The notes under the pieces are model-generated. The model ran no database searches and had not been told where the DNA came from. It was given only the letters and a program-made list of their open reading frames with translations. A stretch of DNA of 64,000 bases from Cyanophora paradoxa CCMP329 (lineage: Eukaryota; Plantae; Glaucophyta): contig QPMI01000127.1 of NCBI GenBank assembly GCA_004431415.1, positions 62,001 through 126,000 on the forward strand, read 5' to 3'. Positions 469-35,530 of this stretch are shown here, piece by piece (position 1 is the stretch's first letter; every line of letters begins with the position of its first letter). The position numbers and the translations under genes are program-made.

Positions 469-1075
469 GGCAACGGCTGCCCCCCGGGCTCGCAGAGACT
501 CACAGGTTGCACAGACCGCATTGGCGCCGTCTGCTCGACCACCGGCCTGTGCGGAAACGGGTGCAGGCCGGGGGCAAGTGTGATCTACGGGTGCGTCGAA
601 GGCCCCACGTGCTCCTTTGATGAAAAATGCGCCAACGGATGCGCCCCAGGCATGCGGCGCGCCGCGGGGTGCGCAGAGGGGGACACATGCTCAATCGACG
701 GGAAGTGCGGCAACGGGTGTTTCCCAGGATTGCGGCCTGTCTTCGGCTGCCCCGAAGCACCCCTGGGGGTGCCTGTCTGCTCTCGTGATGGCAAATGTGC
801 GAACGGCTGCTTCCCCGCGGAGTCCCTCATTTTCTGCGAGGAGGGGCCCGTCTGCTCGATCGGCGGCACTTGCGCAAACGGGTGCCCTCCCGGCGAAAAA
901 CCGCTCGAGGGGTGCTCGGAGGGCCCGACCTGCTCGCGGGACGAAACGTGCGCCAATGGGTGCCCTCCCGGGACCCGGCCTTTGCACGGGTGCGAGGAGG
1001 GGTATGGCAAGTTCGTCTGCTCCCAGGATGGGAACTGCGCCAACAAGTGCCCGCCTGGGAGAGTGCCCCTGAACG
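469..1075 (+). pseudogene. Internal fragment of a Cys-rich repeat protein (~25-27 aa unit GCxEGPxCSxDGxCANGCPPG)
   Basis: About 8 repeats in one frame, opening at GNGCPPGSQ without an ATG and lost after PPGRVPLNG. Confidence 0.8.
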
Positions 1076-3109: not shown

Positions 3110-3430
3110 CGCGGGTACCAGCTGGCCGGCCACGTTGACATTGACTCTGGGGCGATCCTTATCGCGGACCCCGGTTACGCCATGCGCTCCAGGGGCGGCG
3201 AGCGGGGCCGCACTCCGGCAGAGGTCGCGTATCGCGACGGCGACGTCCTGGCCCGCGCCACGCACGCCCAGCTGGCGGCCCCGACCCGGCGCGGGAACAT
3301 GACGCTCAATGCGGGGGTCGTGGCCCGCACGGGCGGCGACGGGACCGTGCCCGTCTACATCCTGCACGCCCCGAACGGCCTCGTGCGATCATCATCGACC
3401 TTCTCAATTAAGAAGTCGCCATCTATCTAG
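3110..3430 (+). pseudogene. DUF4241-like fragment
   Basis: GHVDIDSGAILIADP and TGGDGTVPVY resemble the VDSG...DP and GDGxYPVY motifs. Confidence 0.5.
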
Positions 3431-3920
3431 CCGTACACGTGCCGGGCATAGTCGTCGTAGTGCCGGGAGGCCACGGCCGGGTTGCACCCCCTGATGGGGT
3501 TCGGGAGCCAGTTCACCTGCGCCTGGTGGGCGCGGGGGGCGGGGCGGGGCGGGCGGGTGCACGTCGGAGCGCATGGTGATCGTGAGCAGGTCCTGCCGCT
3601 GCATGGACAGCAGGGTGGCCAGGATGCGGGACGAGTCGTCGCGGTCCTCGGGGCTCGGGTGCAGGGCGGTCTCGCCGACGAGGTGGAGGTGCGCGGCCAG
3701 GTCTTTCAGCGCCTTCCACAGCGAGGCCGGGATGTCCTCGAGGCGGGCGCTGCGGGCGGCGTGCGCTCAGGCGGCAGCAGGCGGCAGACGGGCGGCGCGC
3801 ACTTGTCGATCCGCACGGCGAACTTGCGCGGCGGGTGGGCGCGCAGGCTAGCCTCGACGAAGACGAGGTCCTCGGCTGGCAGCGGCTTCTTGGGCTTGAA
3901 CAGGATGCCGGCCCCGGCCT
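3427..3920 (-). pseudogene. Host-type intron-containing gene, 3' fragment, unknown product
   Basis: Removing GT-AG introns 3750-3802 and ~3523-3562 gives continuous KFAVRIDNARLEDIP...MRSD...WLPNP...HVYG*. Confidence 0.6.
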
Positions 3921-4349: not shown

Positions 4350-5083
4350 CCGTTGCCACACATGCCATCGGTAGAGCAGATGAAACCCTCTGCGCACTGT
4401 GCCAGGGGCCTGGATCCAGGTGGGCAGCCGTTGGCGCAATTCCCATCTCCTGAGCAGGTGATGCCACCCTCTGGGCACCCCGTCAGGGGGCTGAACCCTG
4501 GAATGCAACCGTTGGCGCATCTGCCCGTGGCCGAGCATGCAGGCCCCTCGGCACACCCGCTGAGGGGGCTCAGCCTGGGGGGGCAGCCATTGGAGCAGTT
4601 ACCAGTGGACGAGCAGACGGGCTTCCCTTTCCCCTCGGCACACCCGTCCAGGGGGCTGGAGCCGGGGGGGCAGCCGTTGGCGCACTTCCCGTCTGCGGAA
4701 CAGGTCGGGCCCTCGGAACACCCAAGGAGGGACTGGAATCCAGGCCTGCACCCGTTGGCACACGTGCCGTCGGATGTGCAGATGGGGCCCTCGGCACAGC
4801 CCACAAGGGGGCGGGAGCCAGATTTGCATCCGTTGGCACATGTACCATCCCGGGAGCATGTGGGGCCCTCAGAGCAGCCAAGCAAGAGGCTTGTCCCTGG
4901 TGGGCAACTGAGGCTGCTGCCAGGTGACAGAGGAGGGCCATTGGCAGTGCCGCCTGTGTTGTTAGCTGCCGTTGCTGCTACTGCATCTGTCTCCTTCCGC
5001 TTGCGCAAGACGAGCATAATGCCCACTGCGATGGCCGCTGCTGTCGCCCCCGCGAGGAGCAGCAGGGTGCCAGCCGGGGCCAT
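4350..5083 (-). pseudogene. Membrane-anchored Cys-rich repeat protein, 5' part
   Basis: N-terminal TM segment + RKRK, then 7 CxxDGxCANGC repeats; breaks at CGNG and joins S74 out of frame. Confidence 0.8.
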
Positions 5084-7140: not shown

Positions 7141-7451
7141 GGTGCCCGCACCACGCATACCCCCCCCCTCCCCCCGCACCACGTACCCCGCACCCCCGCA
7201 CCCCCCGCACCCCCCCGCACCCCGCACCCCCGCACCGCCCCGCCCCCCCCACCCCCCCCCCCCCCACCCCCGCACCGCGCACCACCGGTGTTGGTTGGCC
7301 AACCAACACCGGTGGTGCGCGGTGCGGGGGTGGGGGGGGGGGGGTGGGGGGGCGGGCGTGCGGGGGTGCGGGGTGCGGGGGGTGCGGGGGGTGCGGGGGG
7401 TGCGGGGGTACGTGGTGCGGGGGAGGGGGGGGTATGCGTGGTGCGGGCACC
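7141..7451. repeat. Spacer-less palindrome with ~155 bp arms centred at 7298/7299
   Basis: ggtgcccgcaccacgcatac...ggtgttggttgg|ccaaccaacacc...gtatgcgtggtgcgggcacc. Confidence 0.95.
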
Positions 7452-7895
7452 AGGGGGGTACAGGGCTGGTGCTGGGTCAGGTGCCAGTGTGACATCGTCG
7501 GTGTACTTTCGAGAGGTGAGTCACGTGGGGGGGGTCCGGGGTCTGAATCGGTCGGGTAGCGGGGGGGGGGGGGGGTGGGGGGTACCTGGACCCGGCGGGG
7601 GGAGGGGGGGTACCTGGACCTGGGTGGGGGGGTACGCACCCGACCATCTCGGGTACAGCTCCCTACGTTCGCAGTCGGGGCCGAGTCAAAGACCGTGGGG
7701 TTCGAATCCAGGCGGGGCCACGCCCGCACCCCGCCTGACGTCCGGCGTGGTGGGCATGCAGATGGGGACGGGCGCCCAGTGCTGTGGACGTCGCTGTGGG
7801 CGGGGTACATGGTTATCCCAGTACACTGGACGACCGCGGCCGTGCGGGCGGGCGTATTATCCGTGCAGTTGGTGTGCAGGGGGGCGAGTGGTCCG

Positions 7896-8345
7896 ATGCC
7901 GCATACGAGCACAGGTCTGCGCTGCCGGGTCGATGGATGCACTTCACCGCGGCCAACACGTGGTCGCCTGTGCTGGAGTCATCGTCGCAAGGAGAACACG
8001 CACCCTCTGTGTCAGCTCGACGGGTGCATCTTGCGGGCGCACCTGACCAGCGCCGGGGAAGTCCACCGCTTCTGTTGGCACCACCGGACCTGGGGTATAC
8101 AGCAGGAGGAGCAGCAGCAGCCTGTCGCCTGCAGCACGGAAGGATGCCCCTGGCCGGCGGCGGGGGGCGTCTCCAATTGCACACGCCACGGCGGTGGCCC
8201 GCGCTGCTCCTGCTGCGGGGGCCTGTCGGCTACCGGCGGCGGCGGCGGCCTCTGCCACGCCTGTGGCGACGGCAAGCGGCGCTGCTGCTGGCCGAGCGGT
8301 TGCGACAAAGACGCCGCAGCGGGTGCCCCCCTCTGCGCGAACCAC
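7896..8345 (+). pseudogene. CxxxGC...CxxH zinc-finger repeat protein (WRKY19-type repeats), truncated
   Basis: CRVDGC..LCWSH, CQLDGC..FCWHH, CSTEGC..CTRHGGG, CWPSGC..LCANH; runs into the repeat at 8345. Confidence 0.7.
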
Positions 8346-8411
8346 CGTGTCATGCTCCGTCAAAAAGGGCGGTGTCCGTCTGCCGCTCTCGTCGCACTGC
8401 CCCTCTCTCGA

Positions 8412-8600
8412 AAACTGGATCACCTTAGATTCGTGTTCTCACAAGCCCCGCTGAATCTGCCCTTATATGAAGGAGGGTGGTGAAGGTCGTCGAGAGGGCG
8501 GGGTCGGCCGCGGGTCGCGAGCGATGTTGCTCGATGCACCTCGGTTCTATATAGGCTGAACTGCCTCCGCTTGTGAGAACATGAATCTAGTGTAGTCCAA
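8412..8600. mobile_element. ~190 bp element with imperfect terminal inverted repeats (MITE-like), copy A; extra solo arm at 8701-8755
   Basis: Left ctggatcaccttagattcgtgttctcacaagc; right gcttgtgagaacatgaatctagtgtagtcca. Confidence 0.65.
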
Positions 8601-8837
8601 TCTGAGACAGGGCCCTAGTGTGTTTCCATATTTGCGGGGGGGGGGCAGGGACGCCCCTAGCCTGGCCTGCGCCGCCTGTGCATGTTCGCATGCTGCTGCT
8701 TCTATATAGGCTGAACTGCCTCCGCTTGTGAGAGCATGATTCTAGTGTGATCCAGCCTGAGATGCTAAGCCCCCCCTCTCCAGTATGCACCCCTGGGTGG
8801 CGGGGGTAGGGTGTGACCAGGACGGACCGCGAGGGGA

Positions 8838-10035
8838 TGCTCGGCCTCTGCGCCTGCATCGCGGCCCTCTCGGACTCCGGCGCCGGCGCCACCGGCGTGG
8901 AGGTGCTCGACCTCGCCGGCGGGGCGTGGTACGACCTGCCGCCGCACGTCCGGCGCACGTACGGCGCCGGTGGCCCGGCGCCCCCGCGGCCGGCGGTCCG
9001 ATGATCTGGGCGAGGGAGGCGATTGAGCGGGGCTACCTCGCCGGCGTGCGCGACCTGCGCCTCTCGGCGGAGGGCGGGTCGCCAGCGCCGGCGGACCCCG
9101 CCGCCTCCTACGCGCGGCAGGCGCGGGCGCTGGTCGCGGCGGCGGCGGGGCGGTGCCCCGCGCTCGAGCGCCTCGAGCTGCTGCAGGTTCCGGCGGCGGA
9201 TCTCGGCAGCCCGGCCGCCCCGGCGCCGGCGCCGTGGATCGCGGGGGCGGCGGCGGCAGCGTTCCGGGCGAGCGCAACGCTCCGGGAGCTTGTTTTCACG
9301 GCCTGCATCGGGGGCGCCCGTCGAGTCGGACGGGCGCCTGATGTTCCGGTACACGGGCTCCTGCGCCGCCCTCCGCATGCTCCGGGCCGCCTGCGGCGGC
9401 CTGCTCTACGTCCCCAACCAGCTTCGGCGCATCACGGTCGTGAACCACGGCAGCCAGGAGCCGTCCGCCGCCTCGGACGCCTTCCGCCGGCGGCGCCGGG
9501 CGGCGGCCCCCGCCTGCGCCGACGAGCTCGGCCTGTACCGCTGGGCTGACCGCCTCGACGACCGCCTGCGGCGACTCCACCGCTGCAACTGGTCCGACAT
9601 GCCTGGTGGCGACCTCTTCCGCGCAAAGGGTGAGAGGGCGGGCCCGGAGCGCTCGCTCGCGGCCCGACCCCCGCGCGCGCAGGCCCCGGGTGGACCCTCT
9701 GCTACTTCTTCCGGACGAAGGACGTCGACATGGGCCTCGCGCTCGGTCCGGCGCTCCTTGCTACTGTCACGGACGTGTACCGCCACGGCTACCCATTCTG
9801 GCCCGGCGACGAGCGGTGGAGGGCGCTCCTCCCCAACCTCCGCACCGTCTTCCTCGCGGCGGGGCCAGCGTCGGACCTCTCTGACGTCCCCGGCCTCTCG
9901 GAGCGCATGCTCAGCTGCCTGGTGAACGGGTGGGAGGTATCCTCGGGCCCCTACTCCCTCTTCTGCGTCGAGGAGACGCGCTACAGCAGGAGCCGCCGCG
10001 CTTACGTGCAGGCAGGCCTGGGCCGGGCCGCGTAG
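8838..10035 (+). CDS. Host-type intron-containing gene, Leu-rich (LRR-like) hypothetical
   Basis: Probable intron near 8960-9015, clear GT-AG intron 9630-9682 joining FRAK-G-PGW; CPALERLEL and LPNLRTVFL motifs; one apparent frameshift near 9315. Confidence 0.55.
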
Positions 10036-12574: not shown

Positions 12575-12994
12575 GCGGAGCAGTTCAGCCTATATAGAAC
12601 CGAGGTGCATCGAGCAACATCGCTCGCGACCCGACCCCCCCTCTCGACGAACTTCATGATCATCACCCTCCTTCATATAAGGGCAGATTCAGCGGGGCTT
12701 GTGAGAACACGAATCTAAGGTGATCCAGTTTTCGAGAGAGGGGCAGTGCGACGAGAGCGGCAGACGGACACCGCCCTTTTTGACGGAGCATGACACGGAC
12801 TGAAACTGGACTACACTAGATTCATGTTCTCACAAGCGGAGGCAGTTCAGCCTATATAGAACCGAGGTGCATCGAGCAACATCGCTCGCGACCCGACCCC
12901 CCCTCTCGACGAACTTCATGATCATCACCCTCCTTCATATAAGGGCAGATTCAGCGGGGCTTGTGAGAACACGAATCTAAGGTGATCCAGTTTC
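12575..12994. mobile_element. TIR element copies B (12575-12731, truncated) and C (12802-12994, complete), inverted relative to copy A
   Basis: Copy C runs gaaactggactacactagattc...gaatctaaggtgatccagtttc; 12580-12798 is the reverse complement of 8345-8565. Confidence 0.7.
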
Positions 12995-14731: not shown

Positions 14732-15157
14732 GCAGCGCGTGCCAGGGGCGGGGTTCTCATCGTCAGAGGAGGGGCACCGTGCTGACGCTGAACCCGAGCG
14801 GCACGCTGCACCGACCTGTCGCGCTTCGTCAACTCGACCGAGGCCTCCTCATTCCAGAACCTCTACGACAACGGGGGCATCTGGGCGCTCGAGGTGCCCC
14901 TGGCGGTCATGGACGACCAGACCCCCATTGGGCTCTCCCAGATGCCTGGCGGCTTCCTCGCCGCCGACGTCTTCGTTCTCACCAACAGCCGCTGCATCGT
15001 GGACCTCCACGCCGCCTTCGTCAAGTTCGAGCGCGAGGACGTCGCGTGCGACGAGCTCGGGCCCGGCGTGTGGGGCCGCCAGCCGGCGCTCTAGCGCTGC
15101 CGCTTCCCCGCAGCCCCCCTCCGGGCCCAGAATGAGGCCCGGGCCGCCGAGCTGGCG

Positions 15158-21530: not shown

Positions 21531-21880
21531 TTAGCACCTCGGCTTCTTCTTCTCCTTCTTCTTCGCTGGCGCCTTCTTCTTCTTCTTCTTCTTCTTTTTC
21601 ATCTCGGCGGCCTTCTTCTTCTCCTTCTGTTTCTTCTCTTCCTCTATGACGGCCTTGCGGACCTCGGCCCGGATCCGGCGGCGCCTGCGGGCCCTGCGCC
21701 GGCGCTCAGAGGAGGAGGAGGAGCAGGAGGAGGAGGAGGAGGAGGAGGATGAGGAGGAGCATGACGACGACGCGTCCGAGTCATCGGAGAGCCTGCACTT
21801 GCAGTGGATCTTGCGCCGGAGGCAGTGGGGGCACCGCCCCTCCCTCACGGCCCGGTACCGGTCGACGGCGTCCGGCTGCG
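21531..21880 (-). pseudogene. Low-complexity Ser/Lys-rich C-terminal fragment with a CxxC..HCxC knuckle
   Basis: CPHCLRRKIHCKC, poly-Ser, poly-Lys. Confidence 0.45.
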
Positions 21881-22179
21881 CATGACGTCGGGTGCACGTA
21901 CGACGAGATCGCGGTGGACCCCATCGAGGGCTCCTACACCCTGATCCGGAAGCTTGAGCGGCTCCAAAAGTTCTGGGCATCCCTGACCGCCTCTTCCATT
22001 TACACCCTAAAAGATGGGGCGATCGTGCATACAGCCCCGTAGCTCTAGATCTAGCTAGTTACTTTGATGTCTGAGCGCCGGGATCTTCGAGTACGAGGAA
22101 GAGTTCGAGGAGGGGCCGGTCGAGGGCACGTGGTCGTTTTTCAACTGCCGCCTCCTCCGCAAGCTCGACGACACCGGGG

Positions 22180-22987
22180 GGCGGCGGCGGGGGCGGGCCG
22201 GGGGGCGGGGATGCTGGCGGCCCGCTGGACCCCGCGGACCCGGGGGCGCGCGAGGCGGCCCTCGCGCGCCTGGAGGAGCTGGACCGCAAGTACCGGCAGG
22301 GGTCCGCGCTGGGGGCGCTCGGGGCGGTGCTCCCGGAAGGGCGCGACCAGCTCTCGGACGACATGTCCGAGATGGAGGACCCCGAGGTGTTCCGGCGGAT
22401 CTTCGAGCGGCGGCGGGAGGTGCTGGAGGTGTACCGGGACCTGCTGGCGACGCGGGCGGTGGACCTCGCGCGGCCGCCGCCCCCGGACGGCGACGAGACG
22501 GCGCTCGACCGCATCAACGCGCACATGGAGCTGGTCTTCCAGCTGGCCCGGTACGCGATGGCGGTCAAGGGCGTGCGGGCCGCGTTCGAGCGGCCGGTCT
22601 CCCTGCGCGTCTACAGCAACGACATCTTCGCGGACCGGATGCAGTTCGCGCGGCCCGGGGAGGAGGACGAGAGCGCCATCGTGAAGATCATGAACCACAT
22701 CACGAACCACTGCGCCCTGCACCGGTACCGGCGCTGCCACGGCGCCGTCTTCCAGGAGAAGTTCGTCGACGGGGGCCACGGGACGCGCGCCTGGGAGCAC
22801 GTCTGCACGATCGACGAGCTGGTGGAGCGCGTGACGACGGCGAACAACCACTACCAGTACTTCAAGCTCCTCCACTCGCACGCCTCGGTGCGCGCCGCCG
22901 TGGTGGACAGCCTGAAGAAGTGCGTCTCGATCGAGTTCGAGGACCTGGTGCGGGACCGCCACATCTTCTCCTTCGACAACCGCGTCT
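22180..22987 (+). pseudogene. NCLDV D5-like (superfamily 3) primase-helicase, N-terminal piece 1
   Basis: YRR..G...TRAWEHVCTI...C.SIEFEDLVRDRHIFSFDN resembles the phycodnavirus D5 N-terminal region (from recall). Confidence 0.8.
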
Positions 22988-22989
22988 GG

Positions 22990-23915
22990 GCCGAAGCCAG
23001 CTGGACGAGCTGGTCGACGATGCCGCGCCCGATCTGGACCGCGATGTTGCGGCCGGCCGTGCACTGGAGCGCATTGCGCACGATCTCCGCGAGCGGCGGC
23101 GGCGGGGATCTGCTGCAAAACGATGCCGACCGGCCGCCCAGCGCCCCGCAAGCGGCGGCGCGGGCGGCGTCGACCGCAGCTGGCCGCGTGCACCGCCTAA
23201 TCTGCTCGGCCGCGTCCGGCGGCATGTTAAACGAGGTGACGAGAAAGTCGGCGGCGACGTCCGCTGCTTTCAGGACCGCCGTGTCGATGAGGGCCGCCCC
23301 GTACAGTTTCCGGGGCGTGGCGCATGGCGGCGGCGGCGGCGGCGCGGGCTGGCCCGGCGCGGGCGGCCCGCGGACGTCGTGGAACATGCAGGGGGTCCTC
23401 TCGGCGGCGAAGTCGATGGCCGACTTGGCTATGGCAGCGCACACCTGCCCGATGATGGGCACGGGGACGTCGGCCTTTGCCTTCCTGGCACAGTCGAAAA
23501 CCTTCTCGGCGAGGCCGTGCACGGTGAGACCGTCCGTTTTCTGGGACGAGAGCACCATGCTGAGTGAGATATCCGCCCTCGCGAAACCCTTCACGAACTC
23601 CTGCGTGAGAAGCCGAAGATCGTTTGCTGCCTTCTGGATGCAAACGAGTAACGACTTGCTGATGCGGGGACCCGGGGTGTCGCGGAGGGTGGAGAGGGTC
23701 AGCGCGCCGACAATAAACTCGATGGCCTCGAGCGTGACGCCCACAACAAGTGAGCTGCGGGCGCCCCAGGCCGCCACTGCCGATCTTATCTGGCCGCCTA
23801 AATACCTCTGCAGCGTCTTGACGGTGTCCGGGTCGGTATGGGCGCTGGCCTTGGCGATGGCGAGCACAAAGACCACGAGCCGCGTGCCCGTTGTCTGCTC
23901 GAAAAGGTCCTCCAC
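22990..23915 (-). pseudogene. Hypothetical helical protein fragment
   Basis: Protein-like minus frame that breaks at the D5 junction. Confidence 0.45.
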
Positions 23916-24339
23916 GGCGGACCGTCTGCTCGGGGCGGCGGTCGAGGAGCCGGCCCAGCACCGTCAGCACGTTCCCCGACGTCTGCCTGCTGGGCTCCGA
24001 GGGGTCGTCGTTCCAGGGGTGCGACACCTGCACCGTGACCGCCGGCTCGTCGTCCGCGAGGAGGGCGTCGAGCGCCTGCCCCGGCCTCTCGGTGAGCAGG
24101 CGCCCGCCCGGGCGAGCGGCCGCCAGCGCACGCACGTCGAAGAGGAGGGAGCAGGAAGCAGCGGGGCGGCGGTGCCGGCGGGCGCGCAGGGCGGCGGCGA
24201 GCGCCCCCAGGGGCCCCGAGAGGCCGCGCTCGAGGGCGTTCAGGTGGAACCTGCGCGGGCACGCTCAGGGAGGCGGGCGAGGGCAGGCCCGCCGGCCAGG
24301 CGGCCGCACCCCTCGATGATGAGCGAGAGGCTCCCGGGG

Positions 24340-25079
24340 TAGCTCCCCAGCAGCAGCTCCTCCAGCGCCGCGAAGACGAAGGTGCCCTCGGCGACGCTGT
24401 AGGGGGCGGGGACCATGGGGTACGCGGGGTAGGCGCGCCCGCGCTCGACGACGGTGTGGTAGTCGTGGTTGGCGAAGACCCGGACCTCGGCGGACCCCGG
24501 CGCCAGGGCGCGGGCGAGGGCGCGGGCCAGGCCGCCCGGCCCGCCGCCGCCGCAGACGGCCGCCACGTCGAGGCAGGTGCCGGAGGGCGGCCCGTCGCGG
24601 TACTTGCACGGCCCCGACGCGATGCCGAGGGCGACCCGCTCGAACTGCACGAGGAGGGGCGCCGGCGCCGGCCGGCTGAGGGGCTCCAGCGCGGCGACGA
24701 AGTCCTCCGTGACCCGCGCCGAGGTGTCGAGGGTGATGTGGTACGAGAAGCACGGGCGCGGGTGCATGGACCGGATGATCCAGCCGCCGGTGATCCGCAG
24801 CGGGGCGCCCCCGGCGGCGGCGCGCTTCTTGGCGCAGGCGATTGCCGTGCTGATGGAGAACTCGCGCACGTCGAAGGCGAACCCCAGCTGCGGGCCGGTC
24901 AGCAATGGCACGCCAGCGCGGCGGGCGCGACGCACCCGCACGACGGGGGGCGGGGGGAGATAGATGCGGCCGTGGTGGGCGAATCCGGTGAGGCAGCCGT
25001 CGGCGTCGCGGAGGGCGCACGGGGGGGCGTACTCCACCACTCGAGGGGGCGGCCAGCCCTGCCGCCCCCGTGCCGCCAA
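24340..25079 (-). CDS. Hypothetical protein
   Basis: Open frame with GC-rich third positions; ends uncertain. Confidence 0.4.
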
Positions 25080-25461
25080 TGCTCGCCGAGGCCTCCTCCA
25101 CCCTCGGGGTGGTGCAGGGGGCGCTGCTCGAGCTGAGCCCCCTTGCCGAGCGCACCCGCCTTGGCGCCTGCTGGTTCTCCTACAACCTGCGCGAGGCCGG
25201 GGAGGTCTGCTGCGAGGAGCTGGAGGCCCTCATGGACCACGTGGAGGCCCTCGAGGGCGCCGCCCGCGCCGCGGGGCTAGGGCACGCCGCCCGGCTCCTA
25301 AGGCAGTACGGGCACGGCAAAAAAAAAAAGATGGACATGCCATGTGCATGCTCGTACGAGCGGCCTCGCAAGGCCTTGCGGCGTGCACAAAGCCCGTGCC
25401 GGTGTAGAGAAGAAGGCTTGCTTGTTTTTTGTGTGCTAGAATTCCAGCCTATATTTCTGGT

Positions 25462-25690
25462 ATGTCCGCGCCGGAGAGAGAGATATACCGGCCCCCATGG
25501 CGCAGGGCGCCGCCGCTGGGGATCCGGAAGTTCGCCCGCGGCCGCGGCCCGGCCTCCTTCATGGTCCTCTCCAACGGGGCCCTGCTGCTGGCGGCCGCGG
25601 AGGCCGCGCGGAGGGGAGGGGCGCGGTTCGCGGTCCACGCCGCCGTCTACGCGTCGGCGGCCCTCGCCAGCGTGCGGTACCACCGTCTTC
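25462..25690 (+). pseudogene. TMEM8/DUF3522 (CREST-like) membrane protein N-terminal fragment
   Basis: VLSNGALLLA...AVYASAALASVRYH (SN and SxxxH motifs). Confidence 0.5.
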
Positions 25691-25719
25691 CGCCACGTCG
25701 TGCGGGCGGTCTCCTCGCA

Positions 25720-26080
25720 CCTCGGGCCTGCTCCACGCGATCTTCGACCGCCTGGAGGTGCAGGAGCGCGCGCGGGCCAGGCGCGTCTGCCGGCGCTTCT
25801 GCACGATCGGGGCGGCCGCCGGCAGCACGCGGATGGCCGTGGAGGCGGTGCTGGCAGAGCCGCCGGCGGACGCTCAACCGCACCCGGCGCTCCCGAGGCT
25901 CGCCCTCTACGAATCGAACCCCCAGCGCGCGTCGTTCGCCGTGCTCGCGGACGTCCTGGCCAGGCCCATCTGCGCGAAGATCGAGAGCCTCTCCATCGTG
26001 CTGTCGGCGGACGGCACCAGCCCGACCCTGTGGAGCGGGTTTCGGGACTCGAGGCACCTGCCGCCGTCGCACCTGCACCG
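25720..26080 (+). pseudogene. F-box fragment
   Basis: LLHAIFDRLEVQERARARRVCRRF. Confidence 0.6.
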
Positions 26081-26414
26081 TCGTACCCGTCCTGCAGGAG
26101 CCGCCTGTGCTCGGCGCGCAGTTCGCGCTGGTCTCGGTTGCGGGCGCGCTCGACGGGGCCCGCCCGAGCCGCCTCCCCCAGCAGGAACATGAGGCGCTGG
26201 ACGGCGCTCCCCGCGGGGGCGGGGAGGACAAAGTCGGTGTCCAGCTCGGGCTCGTGCTCCGGAAGGGTGCGGCGGACCGGCCTCGCCAGCTCCTGCTCCA
26301 GGCGGTCGGCGTCGTAGGCCGTCATGACCAGCCACTCGAATGGGGCCTCGGTCTCAATGATGTGCTGAATGGTACGCAACCGGACGTTAGAGAGGTGCTA
26401 AAGCCGCCTGGAGT

Positions 26415-26885
26415 GCTAATGGCCCACCCGCCGCCGCCATAGACCGGGACCTTTGCATCACCGTAGTTTTTGCCCCCGCCCCCGACAATGATGGTGTACG
26501 CTGCCCCCGGGACCACTGCCAGCACGCCGGTCACGAAACCCCCGCCGCCGCCCGGCGGGAATGAGGGGGCATAGCTACATCCCCCGCCCCCGGCGCCCCA
26601 CATCTTGACGGTCACGCTGGTGACCCCCTCCGGAACCGTCCAGACCTGGTCAGCCCCTGTGAACCCGAAGATGACCTTCTCCATTCTGGCACTGGCGCTG
26701 GCCCCCCGAAAGTAAGACATGAGCATGGTGGAGCGCGAGGTCGGGATGTTTGGGCCGGCAACGGACGAGGCAATGTAGGACCCCCCCTTGAAGAGCTGCG
26801 AGAGGTAGACGGGCCCCGTGATGCCGAAGATCGCACGCAGATGGGCCGTTGAGACCGGGCCTGTCGCTGGGACGGACACCGACAT
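26415..26885 (-). pseudogene. Viral glycine-rich domain protein, N-terminal fragment
   Basis: FTGADQVWTVPEGVTSVTVKMWGAGGGG...GGGGGFVTGVLAVVPG..YTIIVGGGG. Confidence 0.8.
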
Positions 26886-26990
26886 GCATGCGTTTCGCTG
26901 TACACTGCACCTTTTATTATATTTTCAGCAGCAGGCTTTTTCAGCAGCAGGCTTTTTTTACAGCCCGCTCCGGTCCCGCCGCGGCGGTCC

Positions 26991-27258
26991 CTAGTACAGC
27001 ACCACGATCCGGCCCGGGTTCCCGCTATTCGGACCCGCGTCCGCGCCCCGCCCGGCGGGGGATGCGTAGTCCGAGTCCCCGGCCCCGCCCGGCGTGTTTC
27101 CGGATGCGGCGGCGGTTGAGCCGCCCGTCACTCGCGCCCCCCCGTGCCAACTGGAGCCGCCGCCGCCGCCGTAGAGACCGCCGCCGCCGCCGTAGTAGCC
27201 GCCGCCGCCGCCCGCGCCCGCATCCATGCTGACGTTACCGCCCTGGTACTGCAGTAGA
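26991..27258 (-). pseudogene. Glycine-rich domain protein, C-terminal fragment
   Basis: GGGGGYYGGGGG..GGGGGSSW...DSDY...GNPGRIVVLY*. Confidence 0.75.
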
Positions 27259-29074
27259 ATTGCGGGAAGGCGCAGTAGCGGTTGCCGTAGGTGGTCTGGA
27301 CCTTGGTCAGGGTGCGGGGGCACTTGCCGCTCTTGGGGACGGCGTACGCCCGCTTGGGGAGCTTCCGAATGTAGCCCATCCGGTAGGTGTCGGAGCGCTT
27401 GGTGCAGGTGATGCGACCGGCGGGGGTGCGGCGGAGACCATAGCCGGGCTTGCACGTGTAGAAGGCCCGCGGCGGGCCCTCTCGCAGCGCGAGGCCGTCC
27501 GCTCCGAGCAGCGTGCCGTCCAGGAGCGGTTCGCCTCGCTGGTCGGCGAGGCGGCCGAGTCGGCGGCCGAGGCCCTCGACGCCGAGGCGCGGGTGCCCCC
27601 CTGGTTTGGGCCCCGTTGCACCAGAGACAAAGACCCCTCCTGGCGGCACACTGTCATCCAAGCCCTTGTCAAAGGCTCCAAGCGCCGCCGGCGAGTGCGT
27701 GGTCCCAACATCTTCGCCGTCGCGCGCTCCGCCGGGCTGGTCACGGCCTGTGTGGGATCGCACTGGTTCTTCGAGATGTTCTCTACCAACCGCAGCCCCT
27801 GGTACGACCCCCCCGAGCACTGCGAGATCGACGACCCGTCCGACGTCATATCCGGTGTACCTGGAGCGCGATGTTGCCATGAGGCCCCTGTGGCTCACAA
27901 TTGCGCTCCAAGAGCTGGGGGCTCCGGGCCCCTGGGCCCGGCCGTCTGCGACGGCCCGGGCGGGCGTGGTGCCCGACGCCACCGTGCCCGATGGATGGGC
28001 GTCGCCCTGGGGAGGGGCGCTGGTGGTTGCAGGCTACCCCGGACCATCTCTCCGGCAGAGCGAGTTCATCATCCAAGCCATCTCGCTGGCAGGGGGGAGA
28101 CAGACGGTGGAGGTGAGGGCCGTGCCCCCGGACCCCCCCCTCGTCGAAGGATCGTCGGCATTCGTTGTCTCCGGGCTCGATGACGGGCGCGAGTATCCAA
28201 TCTACATCGAGCGGTCCGCGAGCGGCGCAAAATGCGTCGTCATCGGGCTCGCGTGGAGTCGCGATCGGGCGGCGCCGCCGGATGCACTACCCCTCCGACA
28301 TGCCGTCTAGCTATCCTGTGGCCGGCTGGGGGCCGGACTTTGGTTGATCTTTGATCCAGTGAACGGCCGTGAGGATCTCCCTGACCGTGAATCGGGGCTG
28401 GAAGTCTCCCACAATCGTTCCCTCTGACGGTAGGGTTCCCCCGTACTTCTGATGTATTTGCTTGCCCAGAACCTCCGCCTCCAGTTTCGAGTTGATCCAC
28501 CAGACGGCCCTCTGGATTTTTTCGGGCGGGAATTGGCCTTCGAACGCTGTTTCGATCGTTGGTAATGGGAGGTTCGAGATGACGACCGGGGGCGGGAACT
28601 TCTCAAGTATGTGGGCGCCCAAGACCTCGCACTCCCATTCGTTGCGAATCCACCGGATGGCCGCGCGGACCTGCTTGATGCTGAAAAGATCCCCGTAGTC
28701 TTCTTCAATCTTCGCCGTCGGGAAGATGACCTTCAGTTTCAGATCCGGGTACTTCAGCAGTATCTTCCTGCCCAGAAACTCCGGATGGATTCCCACGAGT
28801 GCCTTTGCAAACCGGAAGCTCTTTCGCATCATCGAGGCCCCCAGCATCTGGTTCGTCAACACCTCCTTCGGCTGCTCCTGGAACCTCGTCCAGCTCAAGA
28901 TCTACGCCCCCGAGCGGCCCCGCGGATTCGAGAGGGTGCGGACGTTGGGGGCCCACTTGTTCAGTTCGCTGATCCACTCCAGCCCGAGTTGCATGCACCA
29001 CGGGTGGTGGTGGGCGCCGGGGCCGGCGGTCTCGGGGAGGTTCCTGCAGGTGAGCCCCACCGCCGCCAGCTGGG

Positions 29075-29307
29075 GGCGTCTACGACACGCGCGACGACCG
29101 CTTCTACGCCTTCGCCGACGGGCCGGCGCCGGCCTCCTTCGTGGCGGCCAAGCACTTCCCCGAGTTCGCGGACCCGCCGGCGGCCGCGGCGGGCGGAGCG
29201 GGCGCCCCGCCGCCGCGCGAGCGCATGCACGACCTCTTCGAGCACTTCCCGAACCGCATGGGGAGCGTCGAGCAGGGCGAGTGGTTCTCGATCCCCACCG
29301 ACGCCTT
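29075..29307 (+). pseudogene. D5-like primase-helicase piece 2 (direct continuation of piece 1)
   Basis: GVYDTRDDRFYAF...AAKHF...WFSIPT; joins in frame to FSFDN at 22980. Confidence 0.7.
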
Positions 29308-29999
29308 CACGGATCCGCGGCCCCGGCGGCGGCGCCCCCGGCCCGATGCCGACGAGCCCCCTGCGAACCTCAGCGAGCAGGCCACGGAGCCCGCGCTCCA
29401 GCCGGCCCTGCCGGCCGAGGTAGAGCATGCATCTCTCGATCGCCATGTGCACTCTGGTGAGGTACCGGGACGGTGGCCCGGGCGACGGAGGTACCGGGGC
29501 TAGGGATGACGACGACGACGATGCCATCCATTCAAACATTTGCTTGATACAGAAGAGATTTCTACCGGCTCGGCGTGCGGGGCACCGAAACCTCGACGTA
29601 CGAGGGCGGCTCGTCCTCCGCCGCCGTCCCCCGCCGCTCCCAGTTCGCCGCACCGAGGCCGACCGACTCCACCGTGCCGTGCACGGGGAGGCGGGTGTAG
29701 AACCAGACCGGCCTGCGGCGTGACTCAGCGGCAGGCTACGGGCACGGGCGCACCGCGCGCACCACGTACCCCCCATTCGGCCGGACGGTCCGACCGGGCT
29801 GGTCGTATCGAAAATGGAGGCGGGGCACCATCTCGCCCAGCAGCGCAGGGCCGTGGCGGTGCGGTCGGTGCCTGTGCCGATACCGACGATGAAGCAAGCG
29901 GTGCGGAGACTAGATATCGCCGACTCGCCCGCATGCGCATGTACGCGGGCGCGCAGGAGCAGGAGGAGGAGTCCCCCACCGGCGAGGTCGTCGCCTCGG

Positions 30000-30358: not shown

Positions 30359-30995
30359 GTGAATGTGAAGTGGGCGGAACTCTACGCGGCGGCCCTGGGC
30401 CGGGCGGGCATGCGGGAGAGCATGAGGCGCCCCCGCGTCTCCCTCAAGGACGTCCACCTGCTGCGGAAGAGCATCGGCCTGACGTACAAGCAGGTGAGCC
30501 AGTTCCAGAGCGAGAAGGACTGGGCGGCCGTGCGTGCGTACACACAGGAGTACCTCAAGCGGCAGGACGCGATGGACGCGACGGCGCTCGTCTTCCTCGA
30601 CGAGTTCTCGGTCGTGCTGAACGAGCACCCCCGGCGCGCGTGGGGCGTCAAGGGGCGCGAGGTGCGCCTGAAGTTCCCGAAGACCTCCAAGGCGCGCACC
30701 GACGTCGTGGCGGCGATCCGGTGGGTCCCGCGGCGGGCGGACGGGACCGAGGAGGCCGAGCCGGCGTACTTCGTCGCGATCTACCCCCCGCGGAAGGTCG
30801 GCGATCACCCGGACTACGGCGTCACGCTGCTCAGGCACAACCTGCCGCTCCTCCCGGGCCAGCGGCCCCCGGACCATCCCGAGGCGCTGGCGGAGAGGGA
30901 CTCCGAGGAGGGCCAGCCGTGGGAGGCCCCGACGCTGGAGATGCGCGCCCTCTTCCCCCAGATCCGGCGCGCCCTGCTCGACTTCCTGAGAGATC
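30359..30995 (+). mobile_element. IS630/Tc1-like transposase fragment
   Basis: LRKSIGLTYK...LVFLDE...RAWGVKG...VVAAI; only the first catalytic Asp is visible. Confidence 0.7.
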
Positions 30996-31013: not shown

Positions 31014-32030
31014 ATGTGCCCGGCGGCCGAGCGCACGGTCGTCCTCTGCACGGCGCCCTCGAAGGGCCACGCGGGCCACGTCAAGACCGGCGTGCACCCC
31101 GACATCTGCCCCGGCACTGGCTGCCCTCCCTACCAGGACAAGGAGAACCCGTGCGGTGAGTGCCTGCCCTCGGGCTCGGACGCCCCCCAGATCTGCCCGT
31201 CGACCGGCTGCCCCCCCGGAAAGGCCCGCAACGTCTGCCAGGAGTGCGACGCCAAGGGCTCCGAGAACCTCCTCACCGGCCGGTGCCTCGACGGTTGCCG
31301 CCGCGGCCTCGGGCGGGACGGGTGCGGGCGCTGCGTGCCTGACTGGCAGGGCGTCACCCCGACCCCCAGCTCGGACGGTTCGGACTGGTGCGCGGCCTGC
31401 GACGTGCCGCGGCTCCTGAACGAGGAGGAGAGCACAATGGTGTGCACGGAGTGCGGGAGCACGGTCAGCTGCCTGCTGCAGACCCCGGCGCAGTGCGCGT
31501 ACGGGTGGCAGCCATACAAGAAGTCCTCGGCGTTCGCGTACAAGAGGGCGAGCCACCTGCAGGAGCGCCTGAACCAGCTGCAGGCGCGCGAGAACTTCAA
31601 CGTCCCCGAAGAGGTGTACCAGCGGGTCTACGAGGAGTTCCGCAAGAACAGGAAGCTGGACCAGATCCGCCCCGACCTGATCCGCGCGACCCTCAAGAAG
31701 CTCAAGCTCTCCAAGCTCTACGAGCACGTCGGCATCATCTACAGCCGCCTGACGGGGACCCCGCCGCCGCGCCTGTCGAAGGAGCAGGAGGACCGCATCA
31801 AGCAGATGTTCTCGGACATCCAGGAGCCGTTCGAGCGGGCGTGCCCCTCCAAGCGAAAGAACTTCCTCTCCTACAGCTTCGTCCTGCACAAGATTTGCGA
31901 GCTCCTGGGCCTGGACGACTTCCTCCCCTACTTCCCCCTCCTCAAGTCGCGCGAGAAGCTCCACCAGCAGGACGGGATCTGGCGCCTCATCTGTGCCGAC
32001 CTCGGATGGGAGTTTATCAAGTCGGTGTAG
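31014..32030 (+). CDS. VLTF3: NCLDV late transcription factor VLTF3 (from ~31385) fused in frame to a Cys-rich fragment
   Basis: VCTECG...YKRASHLQERLNQLQARE...LKKLKLSKLYEH...RKNFLSYSFVLHKICELL...LLKSREKL..QD.IW..IC..LGWEF. Confidence 0.93.
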   Translation: MCPAAERTVVLCTAPSKGHAGHVKTGVHPDICPGTGCPPYQDKENPCGECLPSGSDAPQICPSTGCPPGKARNVCQECDAKGSENLLTGRCLDGCRRGLGRDGCGRCVPDWQGVTPTPSSDGSDWCAACDVPRLLNEEESTMVCTECGSTVSCLLQTPAQCAYGWQPYKKSSAFAYKRASHLQERLNQLQARENFNVPEEVYQRVYEEFRKNRKLDQIRPDLIRATLKKLKLSKLYEHVGIIYSRLTGTPPPRLSKEQEDRIKQMFSDIQEPFERACPSKRKNFLSYSFVLHKICELLGLDDFLPYFPLLKSREKLHQQDGIWRLICADLGWEFIKSV

Positions 32031-33470: not shown

Positions 33471-34220
33471 GAGGGAACGGAGGCGACGAAGGTGCAGGTG
33501 GGGTCGGTGGGGCAGGCCGCCGCCGCGAAGCGCGCGCGGTTGCCGAGGCCGGGGGCGTCGTCCGTCCGCACGGGCACGCGGAACGGGAAGAGGCTGGCGG
33601 TGGACGCGGAGTAGCCGGGCCGGGCCATCGCCCTGCGCCTCTGCTTGGGCTGCTGCCGGTACAGATCGCCCTGGCCGTGCGCCCCCTTCTCCCACCGGCC
33701 GACAGCGCACACCTGGGGGCGAGGGGGCCGTCAGGCGAGCGAGCGGGGGCCGGGGGCCGACGACCGCGTGCGTGCGTGCGCGCACCCGGGCGACGCAGCG
33801 GAGGCGCTGGGCCGGAGTCACGATGCTCTGCCCGGGCTGCGGGAGGCGCCCCGCGGCGAGGTTGAGGTCGACGGGGAGCAGGAAGGGCTCCTCCTCCTCC
33901 ATCATGGCCAGCAGCGTCGCCGCGGAGTACGTGCCCGTGTAGAACACGGGCTGGATCGAGTAGATCTCGAGGAGCGCGTTGTGGCGGAGGAGGGCCCCCA
34001 CGAGGCGCTCGCGCTCCGCCCAGTTCGAGAACTGTGCGCCGATGAGGTCGAGGGCGTCGGGCGAGCCGGCGATCGCCGGCCCGACGACCGCCTCCAGCAG
34101 CCACTCGAGCACGAAGCCGGGCCCGTCCCCGCGCACGCCGTAGATGAGGGCGCGCGCGCCCTCCTCCGATGCGAGCAGGACGAGGTTGGCAATCGAGGTC
34201 AGGCTCAGCGGGCACGCCGC
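33470..34220 (-). pseudogene. Intron-containing gene fragment, unknown product
   Basis: GT-AG intron 33713-33785 with a ctgac branch point links CVAR to VCAVGRW. Confidence 0.5.
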
Positions 34221-35080
34221 GACCGCCGCGAGGGGCGCCGCCGGCCACTGCATCGTGGAGATCCCCCGGCAGGACGTCTTCCGGCGGAGGGAGTGGGCCG
34301 TCCAGATCAGCAGCTCGGGTATGAACTTCGCCCTCGTCTGGCTCCGGCCCTGGGAGACCGACCGCACGAGCTCCGTCCCGCTCTGGTTCGTCGTCTCCTG
34401 GCACTGGGCGGCGGCCCCGGCGGCGCCGCAGCTCGCCGTGCGCGCGTGCGATCCCCAGTTGCGCACTGGCGGCGAGGTGGCGGCGGTCTGCGTGCGCGAC
34501 GACGCCGCCTGCGTCGCCGAGCTCATGCGCCCCTCCCGGGGCCCCGGGGGCGCCGCCGGCGCATCCCTCCTGCTCTGGGAAGTGCACGTCGGCACCGGCA
34601 CCGGCGCGGCGCCGCCGCCGCCTCCCGAGGTCATCTACGCCCAGAGCGTCCAGGGGGTGGACGCCCTCCTCCTGACCCCCTCGGGGCACTTTGCCCCCGC
34701 CAGCGCCTCCAGCTCCTCCCGCGCCTGCGAGACCGCGGCGGCCACCAGGGGCCCTGCCAGCGGCTGGGGCAGGGTCGTCGAGATCTCGACCTGCCCCGAG
34801 AAGGCGTGCATGCGCTCGCCCGCCGTCCCGCCGACGAGGGCGAACGAGGGGCGGACTTCGAGGAAGTCGAGCTCGGATCCGGCCACCGCAATCTTGACGG
34901 TGGCCTCAATGACCCACTGCCGCTCGGAGTGCCTGACGAGGCGCTGGCGGCTGGTCGCCCGCACGGGCCCGCTCGCAAGCGCCCCCCCGGAACGGAACGG
35001 AAACACGACGGTGCGGGCGGGCACTGCCGCCTCCAGTGATCGTCAGGGGGGCGCCGGCGGGTGCCCCCGGCTCGGACAAC

Positions 35081-35357
35081 ATGGCAGCGTCGTCACCCGT
35101 GTCGGTGCACCGCGCGTACAAAGACCAGCTGCGGGCATACAGCAAGAAGTCGTTCGACCCCTTCTGTCGGCGCGAGCGCGTGCTCTTCACGCCGGACCCG
35201 GAGCGCTGGCCCGAGGAGGCGGAGACGACGCTGGGGCAGCTGAACTTCTTCCAATGGGCCATCTCCCGGGGCGTGCTGGCGTACGCAGTGGAGCACGCAG
35301 CGGAGATCGAGGAGGACATGACGAGCAACGTGTCGAGCAAGAAGCGGCAGAGGGAGC

Positions 35358-35396
<39 letters not shown>

Positions 35397-35530
35397 CGGC
35401 GGCTGCGGCTCAGAGGCGGGGCGGGCGGGAGGCCGGCGGCACCGGTGGGCGCCGCCGCCGGAAGCAGATCTCGGAGGATCACTCGCAGGGCGTGAACATG
35501 TTCCGGAACGTGAAGGTGCAGTTCGACTAA
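35081..35530 (+). CDS. Conserved NCLDV hypothetical protein (probably 5' truncated) with poly-Gln
   Basis: YKDQLRAYSKKSFDPFCR...ETTLGQLNFFQWA motif, recalled from mimivirus and phycodnavirus proteins. Confidence 0.8.

What the first reader, a model, noticed from the sequence alone, without database searches (positions are those of the whole stretch)
22180..29307. D5 helicase split in two with no lost codons, flanked by a 6 bp direct repeat
Seen: piece 1 ends ...HIFSFDN followed by GCGTCT (22982-22987). Piece 2 starts with GCGTCT (29076-29081) and reads (G)VYDTRDDRFY...AKHF...WFSIPT. Deleting the 6094 bp between the two GCGTCT copies restores one frame through the F.NGVYD motif. The intervening DNA is itself a patchwork of ten or more unrelated fragments with no terminal repeats. 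Inference: shuffling works by insertion or precise cut-and-rejoin rather than deletion alone, like pointer-flanked scrambled gene segments.
Basis: partly seen in the sequence, partly recalled or inferred. Interest (0 to 1): 0.85.

Follow-up and report, generated by a model that had tools for sequence, protein, structure and literature searches.

The report
Giant-virus gene cross-joined in algal genome
A giant-virus replication gene lodged in an alga's chromosome is cut exactly between two codons, its halves 6 kb apart, likely by a one-off swap with a second cut gene; nothing shows the cell re-joining it, so this is probably unusually tidy decay of viral DNA, not ciliate-style gene scrambling.

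Summary
The split is real. Against a profile of 69 full-length D5-like proteins, piece 1 ends at column 285 and piece 2 starts at 286. Contigs of two DNA runs cross both breaks at single-copy depth with no differences. The host is the glaucophyte Cyanophora paradoxa, where giant-virus insertions are already reported (PMC12344493). Three results go against the pointer reading. Deleting between the GCGTCT copies puts Arg where 109 of 112 homologs have Gly and none has Arg. The helicase half is absent from the window. Junctions show no excess of pointer-like pairs (234 vs 224±39). New here: the same two junctions share a second word, GCCAGCTGG, in swapped order. It joins the reading frames at the two ends of the 6.1 kb block in frame (chance about 0.002). 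So D5 and a second gene were likely both cut and cross-joined, through a circle or two overlapping inversions. Two more candidate pairs close one linear ancestral order (p=0.043 in one of several tests; the other tests not significant). Verdict: likely balanced rearrangement of a decaying endogenous giant virus, not programmed unscrambling.

The parts
22345..22980 (+). D5-like primase-helicase piece 1 (profile columns up to 285, ending at the Asn of the F.NG motif); the frame is open further upstream, to about 22216
   Evidence: GC3 1.00 over 212 codons
22981..22981 (+). C where the D5 continuation needs G; likely a repair scar (one extra base)
   Evidence: the scar reading is inference
22982..22987 (+). 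shared word 1 (GCGTCT), left copy
22996..23004 (+). shared word 2 (GCCAGCTGG), left copy, in the minus-strand frame of gene X
22983..23918 (-). gene X upstream part: 312 codons, no stop before the junction, no homolog found
   Evidence: searches blank
22988..29075 (.). 6.1 kb single-copy patchwork between the D5 pieces (F-box, Gly-rich and DUF5871-like fragments, intron-bearing unknown gene)
28902..29075 (-). gene X downstream part (inferred): 57 codons, starts at the junction, ends in a stop
29065..29073 (+). shared word 2 (GCCAGCTGG), right copy; lies before word 1 here (swapped order)
29076..29081 (+). shared word 1 (GCGTCT), right copy, preceded by the G of the conserved Gly codon (29075)
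29075..29308 (+). D5-like piece 2 (profile columns 286 to about 338), truncated again after the IPT motif
   Evidence: GC3 0.99
25025..25049 (.). candidate partner junction A (head-to-head strand switch), sharing an inverted 8-mer with 34676-34683
   Evidence: suggestive only
34656..34683 (.). candidate partner junction A' (tail-to-tail strand switch)
   Evidence: suggestive only
21800..21807 (.). candidate partner junction B: 8-mer whose inverted copy is at 34245-34252; both flanking frames rejoin in register
   Evidence: not significant alone (p 0.45)
31389..32030 (+). poxvirus-type late transcription factor VLTF3 C-terminal part; marks the region as giant-virus derived
   Evidence: PF04947 E 2e-50
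35096..35530 (+). DUF7197 fragment lacking its first ~75 residues (the label VLTF2-like is recalled, from no call)

Best explanation
A giant-virus D5-like gene in a single-copy endogenous viral patchwork of the Cyanophora genome is cut between two adjacent codons, and was likely cross-joined once with a second cut gene (X) in a balanced exchange at short shared sequence. Shown: the split, its codon-exact register, the two shared words in swapped order, and the in-frame fit of the block's two ends. Inferred: X-upstream and X-downstream were one gene, so the 6.1 kb block is permuted rather than simply inserted. The repeats are either microhomology already shared by the two genes (then one extra base was added) or filled-in staggered breaks with a few filler bases. 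The geometry needs either a circle opened in X and joined into D5, or two overlapping inversions; the candidate pair 25039/34678 would be the second inversion. The outcome is a dead gene fixed in the chromosome; no routine re-joining is expected.
For: Columns 285|286 with no gap. Both breaks lie inside single contigs at depth 101-112 with 0 differences (these runs may be the source of the window). Second word GCCAGCTGG, offset 6069 (0 mod 3): chance 0.0023 for unrelated coding windows, 0.012 for neighbouring windows of one gene. Polarity fits: X-upstream runs into the left break without a stop; X-downstream starts at the right break and ends in a stop. Requiring two swapped words and both genes in frame, this pair ranks first of 1056 pair-orientations. 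Three pairs reach 23 bits against 0.81±0.89 in the null (p 0.043), and together they give one linear ancestral order, whereas the D5 pair alone gives a circle. GC3 of 1.00 and 0.99 shows almost no point decay, so the C at 22981 is more likely a junction scar than a later mutation in a target-site copy (inference). Methylated, mostly silent viral insertions in this species: PMC12344493 (section 9 and passages read; this locus not identified there). Decay of viral insertions by recombination in Acanthamoeba: PMC12210455 (passages).
Against: Gene X has no homolog that could prove its halves belong together. The second word was noticed in a scan before it was tested. Window-wide tests mostly fail: one-way in-frame words 234 vs 224±39; swapped words without frame 8 vs 9.7; single-word reciprocal pairs p 0.29-0.74, double-word pairs at 20 and 25 bits p 0.09 and 0.23; strand-switch junctions p 0.14-0.29. 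The p of 0.043 is one of many tests and came after dropping 6 intron-like junctions of 39. High-ranking false pairs exist (intron branch motifs at 3752/24262; a natural convergent stop at 3429). Neither join is clean: one extra base, or 8 plus 1 filler bases, must be assumed.
Confidence: 0.6

Rival explanations
1. An already shuffled 6.1 kb linear block was captured at a staggered break in D5; the 6-7 bp repeat is a target-site duplication or templated filler, and the block's two ends are unrelated.
For: A perfect 6 bp direct repeat flanks the block with zero codon loss. Staggered breaks and filler DNA give such scars (PMC7584159, passages, for Drosophila inversions). No homolog links the halves of X.
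Against: It leaves the in-frame 9-mer (chance 0.0023) and the matching polarity of the ends as coincidence. A 6 bp duplication implies Arg at a Gly column; a 7 bp one needs a later point mutation in a gene with GC3 1.00. No terminal repeats, no transposase or integrase hit inside the block, single copy.
Confidence: 0.27
2. The two pieces come from two D5 paralogs and meet at the same codon by chance.
For: The host holds at least one other D5 fragment, 51% identical, on another contig (P0005). Identity to 104 distant homologs does not correlate between the pieces (rho 0.06), so that test cannot tie them to one gene.
Against: Exact 285|286 register, the shared 6-mer (7.6e-4), near-equal GC3 and 6 kb proximity would all be chance.
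Confidence: 0.05
3. Programmed scrambling: the repeats are pointers and the cell or a reactivating virus excises the block to rebuild D5.
For: Codon-exact split, a 6 bp repeat within the 2-20 bp range of ciliate pointers (PMC5940158, passages), almost no point decay, and candidate pairs that close a linear order.
Against: The product carries Arg at a near-invariant Gly. Columns 340-671 are absent from the window. No excess of pointers. No rejoined joint among 15 of 59 shown in two DNA runs. No germline/soma nuclear dimorphism is known in glaucophytes (recalled).
Confidence: 0.03
4. Assembly chimera.
For: The region is a dense patchwork next to a tandem array.
Against: Contigs 21774-26811 and 26835-29798 cross both breaks with 0 differences in runs X5 and X18; 20 DNA runs hold all sampled words. 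All are flagged as possible sources of the window, so they are not independent samples.
Confidence: 0.01

Closest known systems
Degraded giant endogenous viral elements (GEVEs): C. paradoxa (PMC12344493, section 9 and passages), Acanthamoeba (PMC12210455, passages), Euglena (PMC12455990, search listing only)
   Same: Clustered Nucleocytoviricota-type gene fragments in a host chromosome, mixed with intron-bearing and transposase sequence; chimerism by recombination after insertion.
   Different: In the passages I read, decay is described as point mutation, transposon invasion, duplication and large-scale recombination. Here pieces are about 300 bp, mostly single copy, nearly free of point decay, and one break pair is balanced to the codon.
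Insertions through circular DNA intermediates (PMC7450558, abstract and outline)
   Same: Permuted order of the moved block with only microhomology and short indels at the breakpoints.
   Different: There the donor locus is known and duplicated. Here no donor copy was seen, the block is 6 kb, and two inversions explain the order equally well.
Inversions with staggered breaks and filler DNA (PMC7584159, passages)
   Same: Short duplications at both breakpoints plus filler; overlapping inversions can turn inverted duplications into direct ones.
   Different: The duplications here are 6-9 bp, not tens to hundreds, and the second inversion is only a candidate.
Scrambled and nested ciliate genes (Oxytricha; PMC5940158, passages)
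   Same: Gene pieces separated by pieces of other genes, with short repeats at matching ends.
   Different: No rejoined product seen, the join would not restore the conserved residue, pointers are not general, and no somatic nucleus is known in this host (recalled).

Membership tests
Nucleocytoviricota D5-like primase-helicase | Homology to the region before the helicase (D5_N-bearing proteins) | tested here: met
   113 hits at E<=0.001; of 12 top full-length hits scanned, 12 carry DUF5906 and 8 carry D5_N; both pieces match their profile
Nucleocytoviricota D5-like primase-helicase | C-terminal helicase domain in one open frame | tested here: not met
   Profile columns 340-671 have no significant match in 1213 six-frame segments; it is a fragmented member
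Giant endogenous viral element | Several giant-virus hallmark genes clustered | tested here: met
   D5-like, VLTF3 E 2e-50 and DUF7197 E 3e-23, the latter with relatives on two IMG/VR contigs
Giant endogenous viral element | Embedded in a host chromosome | tested here: met
   A C. paradoxa gene model matches piece 1; the patchwork runs into an intron-bearing tandem array at about 36367; even contig depth near 100-112
Giant endogenous viral element | Methylated and silent | not testable with these tools
   Reported for the species in general (PMC12344493); the contig names are not in its one held supplement, and figures are not held
Ciliate-type scrambled gene | Short pointer repeated at the ends of consecutive segments | tested here: met
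   GCGTCT at this one junction pair
Ciliate-type scrambled gene | Recombination at the pointer restores the correct coding sequence | tested here: not met
   Arg at a column that is Gly in 109 of 112 and never Arg
Ciliate-type scrambled gene | Rearranged product exists as DNA | tested here: inconclusive
   Not among 15 of 59 joints shown; contigs drop rare variants
Ciliate-type scrambled gene | Pointers are general across segments | tested here: not met
   No excess over the null
Transposon, Polinton or LTR insertion with target-site duplication | Terminal inverted or long terminal repeats | tested here: not met
   self-BLAST
Transposon, Polinton or LTR insertion with target-site duplication | Encoded transposase or integrase, or several copies | tested here: not met
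   No such hit among the frames scanned inside the block; single copy
Circular-intermediate insertion | Block order permuted relative to a donor locus | tested here: inconclusive
   The ends fit in frame, but no donor was found and two inversions give the same order

The most novel reading that the evidence does not exclude
Cyanophora disables integrated giant-virus DNA by serial, balanced, base-precise exchanges at 6-9 bp words, scrambling it into about 300 bp pieces with almost no loss or point decay, so the genomes of unknown glaucophyte viruses lie scrambled but computationally recoverable in the host chromosome.
Probability: 0.2. Interest if true: 0.75.

Novelty: new variant of a known kind. 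Interest (0 to 1): 0.45.

Why it matters
Giant-virus insertions are common in protist genomes, but how they are broken up is mostly described at coarse scale. One homology-anchored break pair shows cut-and-rejoin with no codon lost, and probably a reciprocal partner. If this is general, it gives a testable mechanism for viral inactivation, dates the scrambling as recent (GC3 undecayed) and offers a way to read gene order of viruses of glaucophytes. If only this pair holds, it is an ordinary repair scar in junk DNA.

Tried and rejected
No whole genome is held, so piece 3 could not be sought outside the window. Word-based protein searches found nothing for piece 1 or gene X. (VLTF3) was sent one base out of frame by my slip and says nothing. 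Related-locus scans were blank for piece 1, X, VLTF3 and 24309-25037. The Atlas gave unnamed clusters for piece 1 and no usable hit for X. The single-sequence fold of X-upstream is low confidence (pLDDT 53) and was not searched further. Complex prediction for the X halves gave no answer (score 0.00); it is no evidence either way. No RNA holder was listed, and the three guessed RNA runs laid show no long piece on the patchwork; this is not evidence on expression. The block as an intron was rejected by eye: the nearest GT and AG give the wrong phase. A common restriction-site motif was rejected by eye: the four candidate words share none. P0003 is not a second copy: it follows from this locus by a predicted GT-AG intron at 22761-22818 (sequence). 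The missing N-terminus of the DUF7197 gene was not found in the window. No in-window paralog bridges the candidate joins. A fourth candidate pair (8-mer at 26073 and 14806) puts one gene in frame and one off by a base; not significant. The tblastx self-comparison was noise. No Rfam match in 1-37000, no tRNA. No earlier scan notes. Literature: nine answered searches used for comparison or novelty plus one search listed no paper on base-level scrambling of viral DNA in Cyanophora; most subscription papers are not in the library. The genome paper PMC6704402 has no occurrence of 'virus' or 'viral' in its main text (supplements not read).
Full report
Setting. The window is about 70% GC. Its first 36 kb are a patchwork of short gene fragments on both strands; the rest is a tandem array of 5.5 and 4.2 kb units with introns. 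No whole genome is held. A predicted protein 98% identical to D5 piece 1 and a second D5 fragment at 51% are both named Cyanophora paradoxa in their source, so the host is a glaucophyte alga. The patchwork holds a VLTF3 part (E 2e-50), a DUF7197 fragment, a Peptidase_S74 domain, a truncated kinase, F-box pieces and an IS630 transposase fragment. Methylated giant-virus insertions are reported for this species (PMC12344493, section 9 and passages read); this locus is not named in the text or the one held supplement.

The split. Piece 1 found 113 relatives at E<=0.001. Of 12 full-length ones scanned, all carry DUF5906 and 8 carry D5_N. I built a 671-column profile from the 69 hits of 560-900 residues. 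Among 1213 six-frame segments only two match: piece 1 (E 2.7e-39) and piece 2 (E 3.5e-5). Aligned separately, piece 1 ends at column 285 and piece 2 begins at 286. Columns 340-671, the helicase, are not in the window. In runs X5 and X18, single contigs cover 21774-26811 and 26835-29798 with no differences at depth 101-112, so both breaks are real and single copy. These runs may be the source of the window. The rejoined form is not among the 15 joints shown of 59, and contigs cannot show rare variants.

The repeat. GCGTCT is at the stated places but is a common word (33 vs 47 expected). Its position is what matters: six contiguous matches to the D5 continuation have a chance of 7.6e-4. The base before it differs, C on the left and G on the right. 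Column 286 is Gly in 109 of 112 homologs and never Arg, and the host's own paralog reads NGVY. Deleting between the copies therefore keeps the frame but gives Arg; the true D5 break is one base left of the left copy. GC3 is 1.00 in piece 1 and 0.99 in piece 2, so point decay is slight and the odd base is more likely a junction scar (inference).

The ends of the block. Both ends are minus-strand coding. A 312-codon frame runs into the left break without a stop; a 57-codon frame starts at the right break and ends in a stop. The two junctions share a second word, GCCAGCTGG (22996 and 29065), in swapped order, and it joins these frames in register. Chance is 0.0023 for unrelated coding windows and 0.012 for adjacent windows of one gene. 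I infer one gene, X, cut and cross-joined with D5. Two base-level readings fit: both genes already shared the 6-7 bp word and one base was added, or both were cut with staggered ends (7 and 9 bp) and joined with filler. X has no homolog, so this is not proven.

Is it general? A codon-phase model divides 1-37 kb into 63 coding segments, median 299 bp, 13 inside the block. One-way in-frame shared words at 37 junctions are not in excess (234 vs 224±39 at 6 bp; 40 vs 33±11 at 8 bp). Swapped double words without frame are not either (8 vs 9.7). With both genes required in frame, the D5/X pair ranks first. After dropping 6 intron-like junctions of 39, three pairs reach 23 bits against 0.81±0.89 (p 0.043), while thresholds of 20 and 25 bits and all single-word tests are not significant. 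The three pairs (22994/29076, 25039/34678, 21797/34250) close into one linear order; the D5 pair alone gives a circle. The second pair has the geometry a second inversion needs: inverted, one break inside the block and one beyond it. A test limited to 18 strand-switch junctions is not significant (p 0.14-0.29), and false pairs from introns and natural gene ends rank high. So one pair is anchored by homology, two are suggestive, and a region-wide rule is not shown.

Mechanism and rivals. Most likely (0.6) a one-off balanced exchange between D5 and X, through a circle or overlapping inversions, fixed in a decaying viral insertion. Next (0.27), capture of an unrelated block with a target-site duplication; it lacks terminal repeats, an integrase and copies. 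Two paralogs meeting by chance (0.05), programmed unscrambling (0.03) and misassembly (0.01) are unlikely.

Comparison. It works like the microhomology-and-filler junctions of circular-intermediate insertions (PMC7450558, abstract) and staggered-break inversions (PMC7584159, passages), inside a degraded viral insertion like those of Acanthamoeba (PMC12210455, passages). It is not a member of the ciliate scrambled-gene system (PMC5940158, passages): the join fails to restore the conserved residue and pointers are not general. My searches listed no base-level description of such scrambling in Cyanophora; figures, bioRxiv supplements and most subscription papers were not visible.

Verdict. Observation partly confirmed, interpretation partly supported; new variant of a known kind; interest 0.45. 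The bold reading, serial balanced scrambling that leaves viral genomes recoverable, has probability 0.2 and needs the whole assembly to test.

Noticed in passing
window 7141-7451: Fold-back palindrome (320 nt, 92% to its own reverse complement) of C-rich then G-rich repeats around a perfect central hairpin; summed contig depth about 43,000 in that bin. Resembles a fused telomere-like or satellite end.
   Followed up: no
window 36367-64000: Tandem array of 5.5 kb then 4.2 kb units with an F-box gene and a Rieske-oxygenase-like gene with introns (VanA_C hit); the patchwork joins it in mid-unit, inside a Gly-rich gene fragment.
   Followed up: partly
window 7652-7744: Short stretch with a diverged copy (7 differences, 3 gaps) on contigs of depth 159-216 in two guessed RNA runs; tRNA-like by eye, but no ARAGORN or Rfam call.
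   Followed up: partly
window 8345-8762 and 12575-12993: Rearranged copies of a non-coding repeat, direct and inverted, 90-99% alike; among the few multi-copy pieces of the patchwork.
   Followed up: no
window 30383-30988: IS630-family transposase fragment (E 3e-9), truncated.
   Followed up: no
window 3750-3802, 9630-9682, 24251-24309, 33713-33785: GT-AG introns of 53-73 nt inside fragmented genes of the patchwork: host genes caught in the shuffle, or viral genes that gained introns.
   Followed up: partly
window 26073-26080 and 14806-14813: An 8-mer shared by two strand-switch junctions; the minus-strand frames would rejoin in register and the F-box frame is off by one base, as for gene X.
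   Followed up: partly
protein P0005 (another contig of the host): A second, 51% identical D5 fragment that also stops shortly after the F.NG motif, suggesting several related viruses fragmented in this genome.
   Followed up: no
window 523-1070 and 4350-4900: Two Cys-rich repeat gene fragments, about 68% alike, on opposite strands; a third similar piece precedes VLTF3 at 31090-31370.
   Followed up: no
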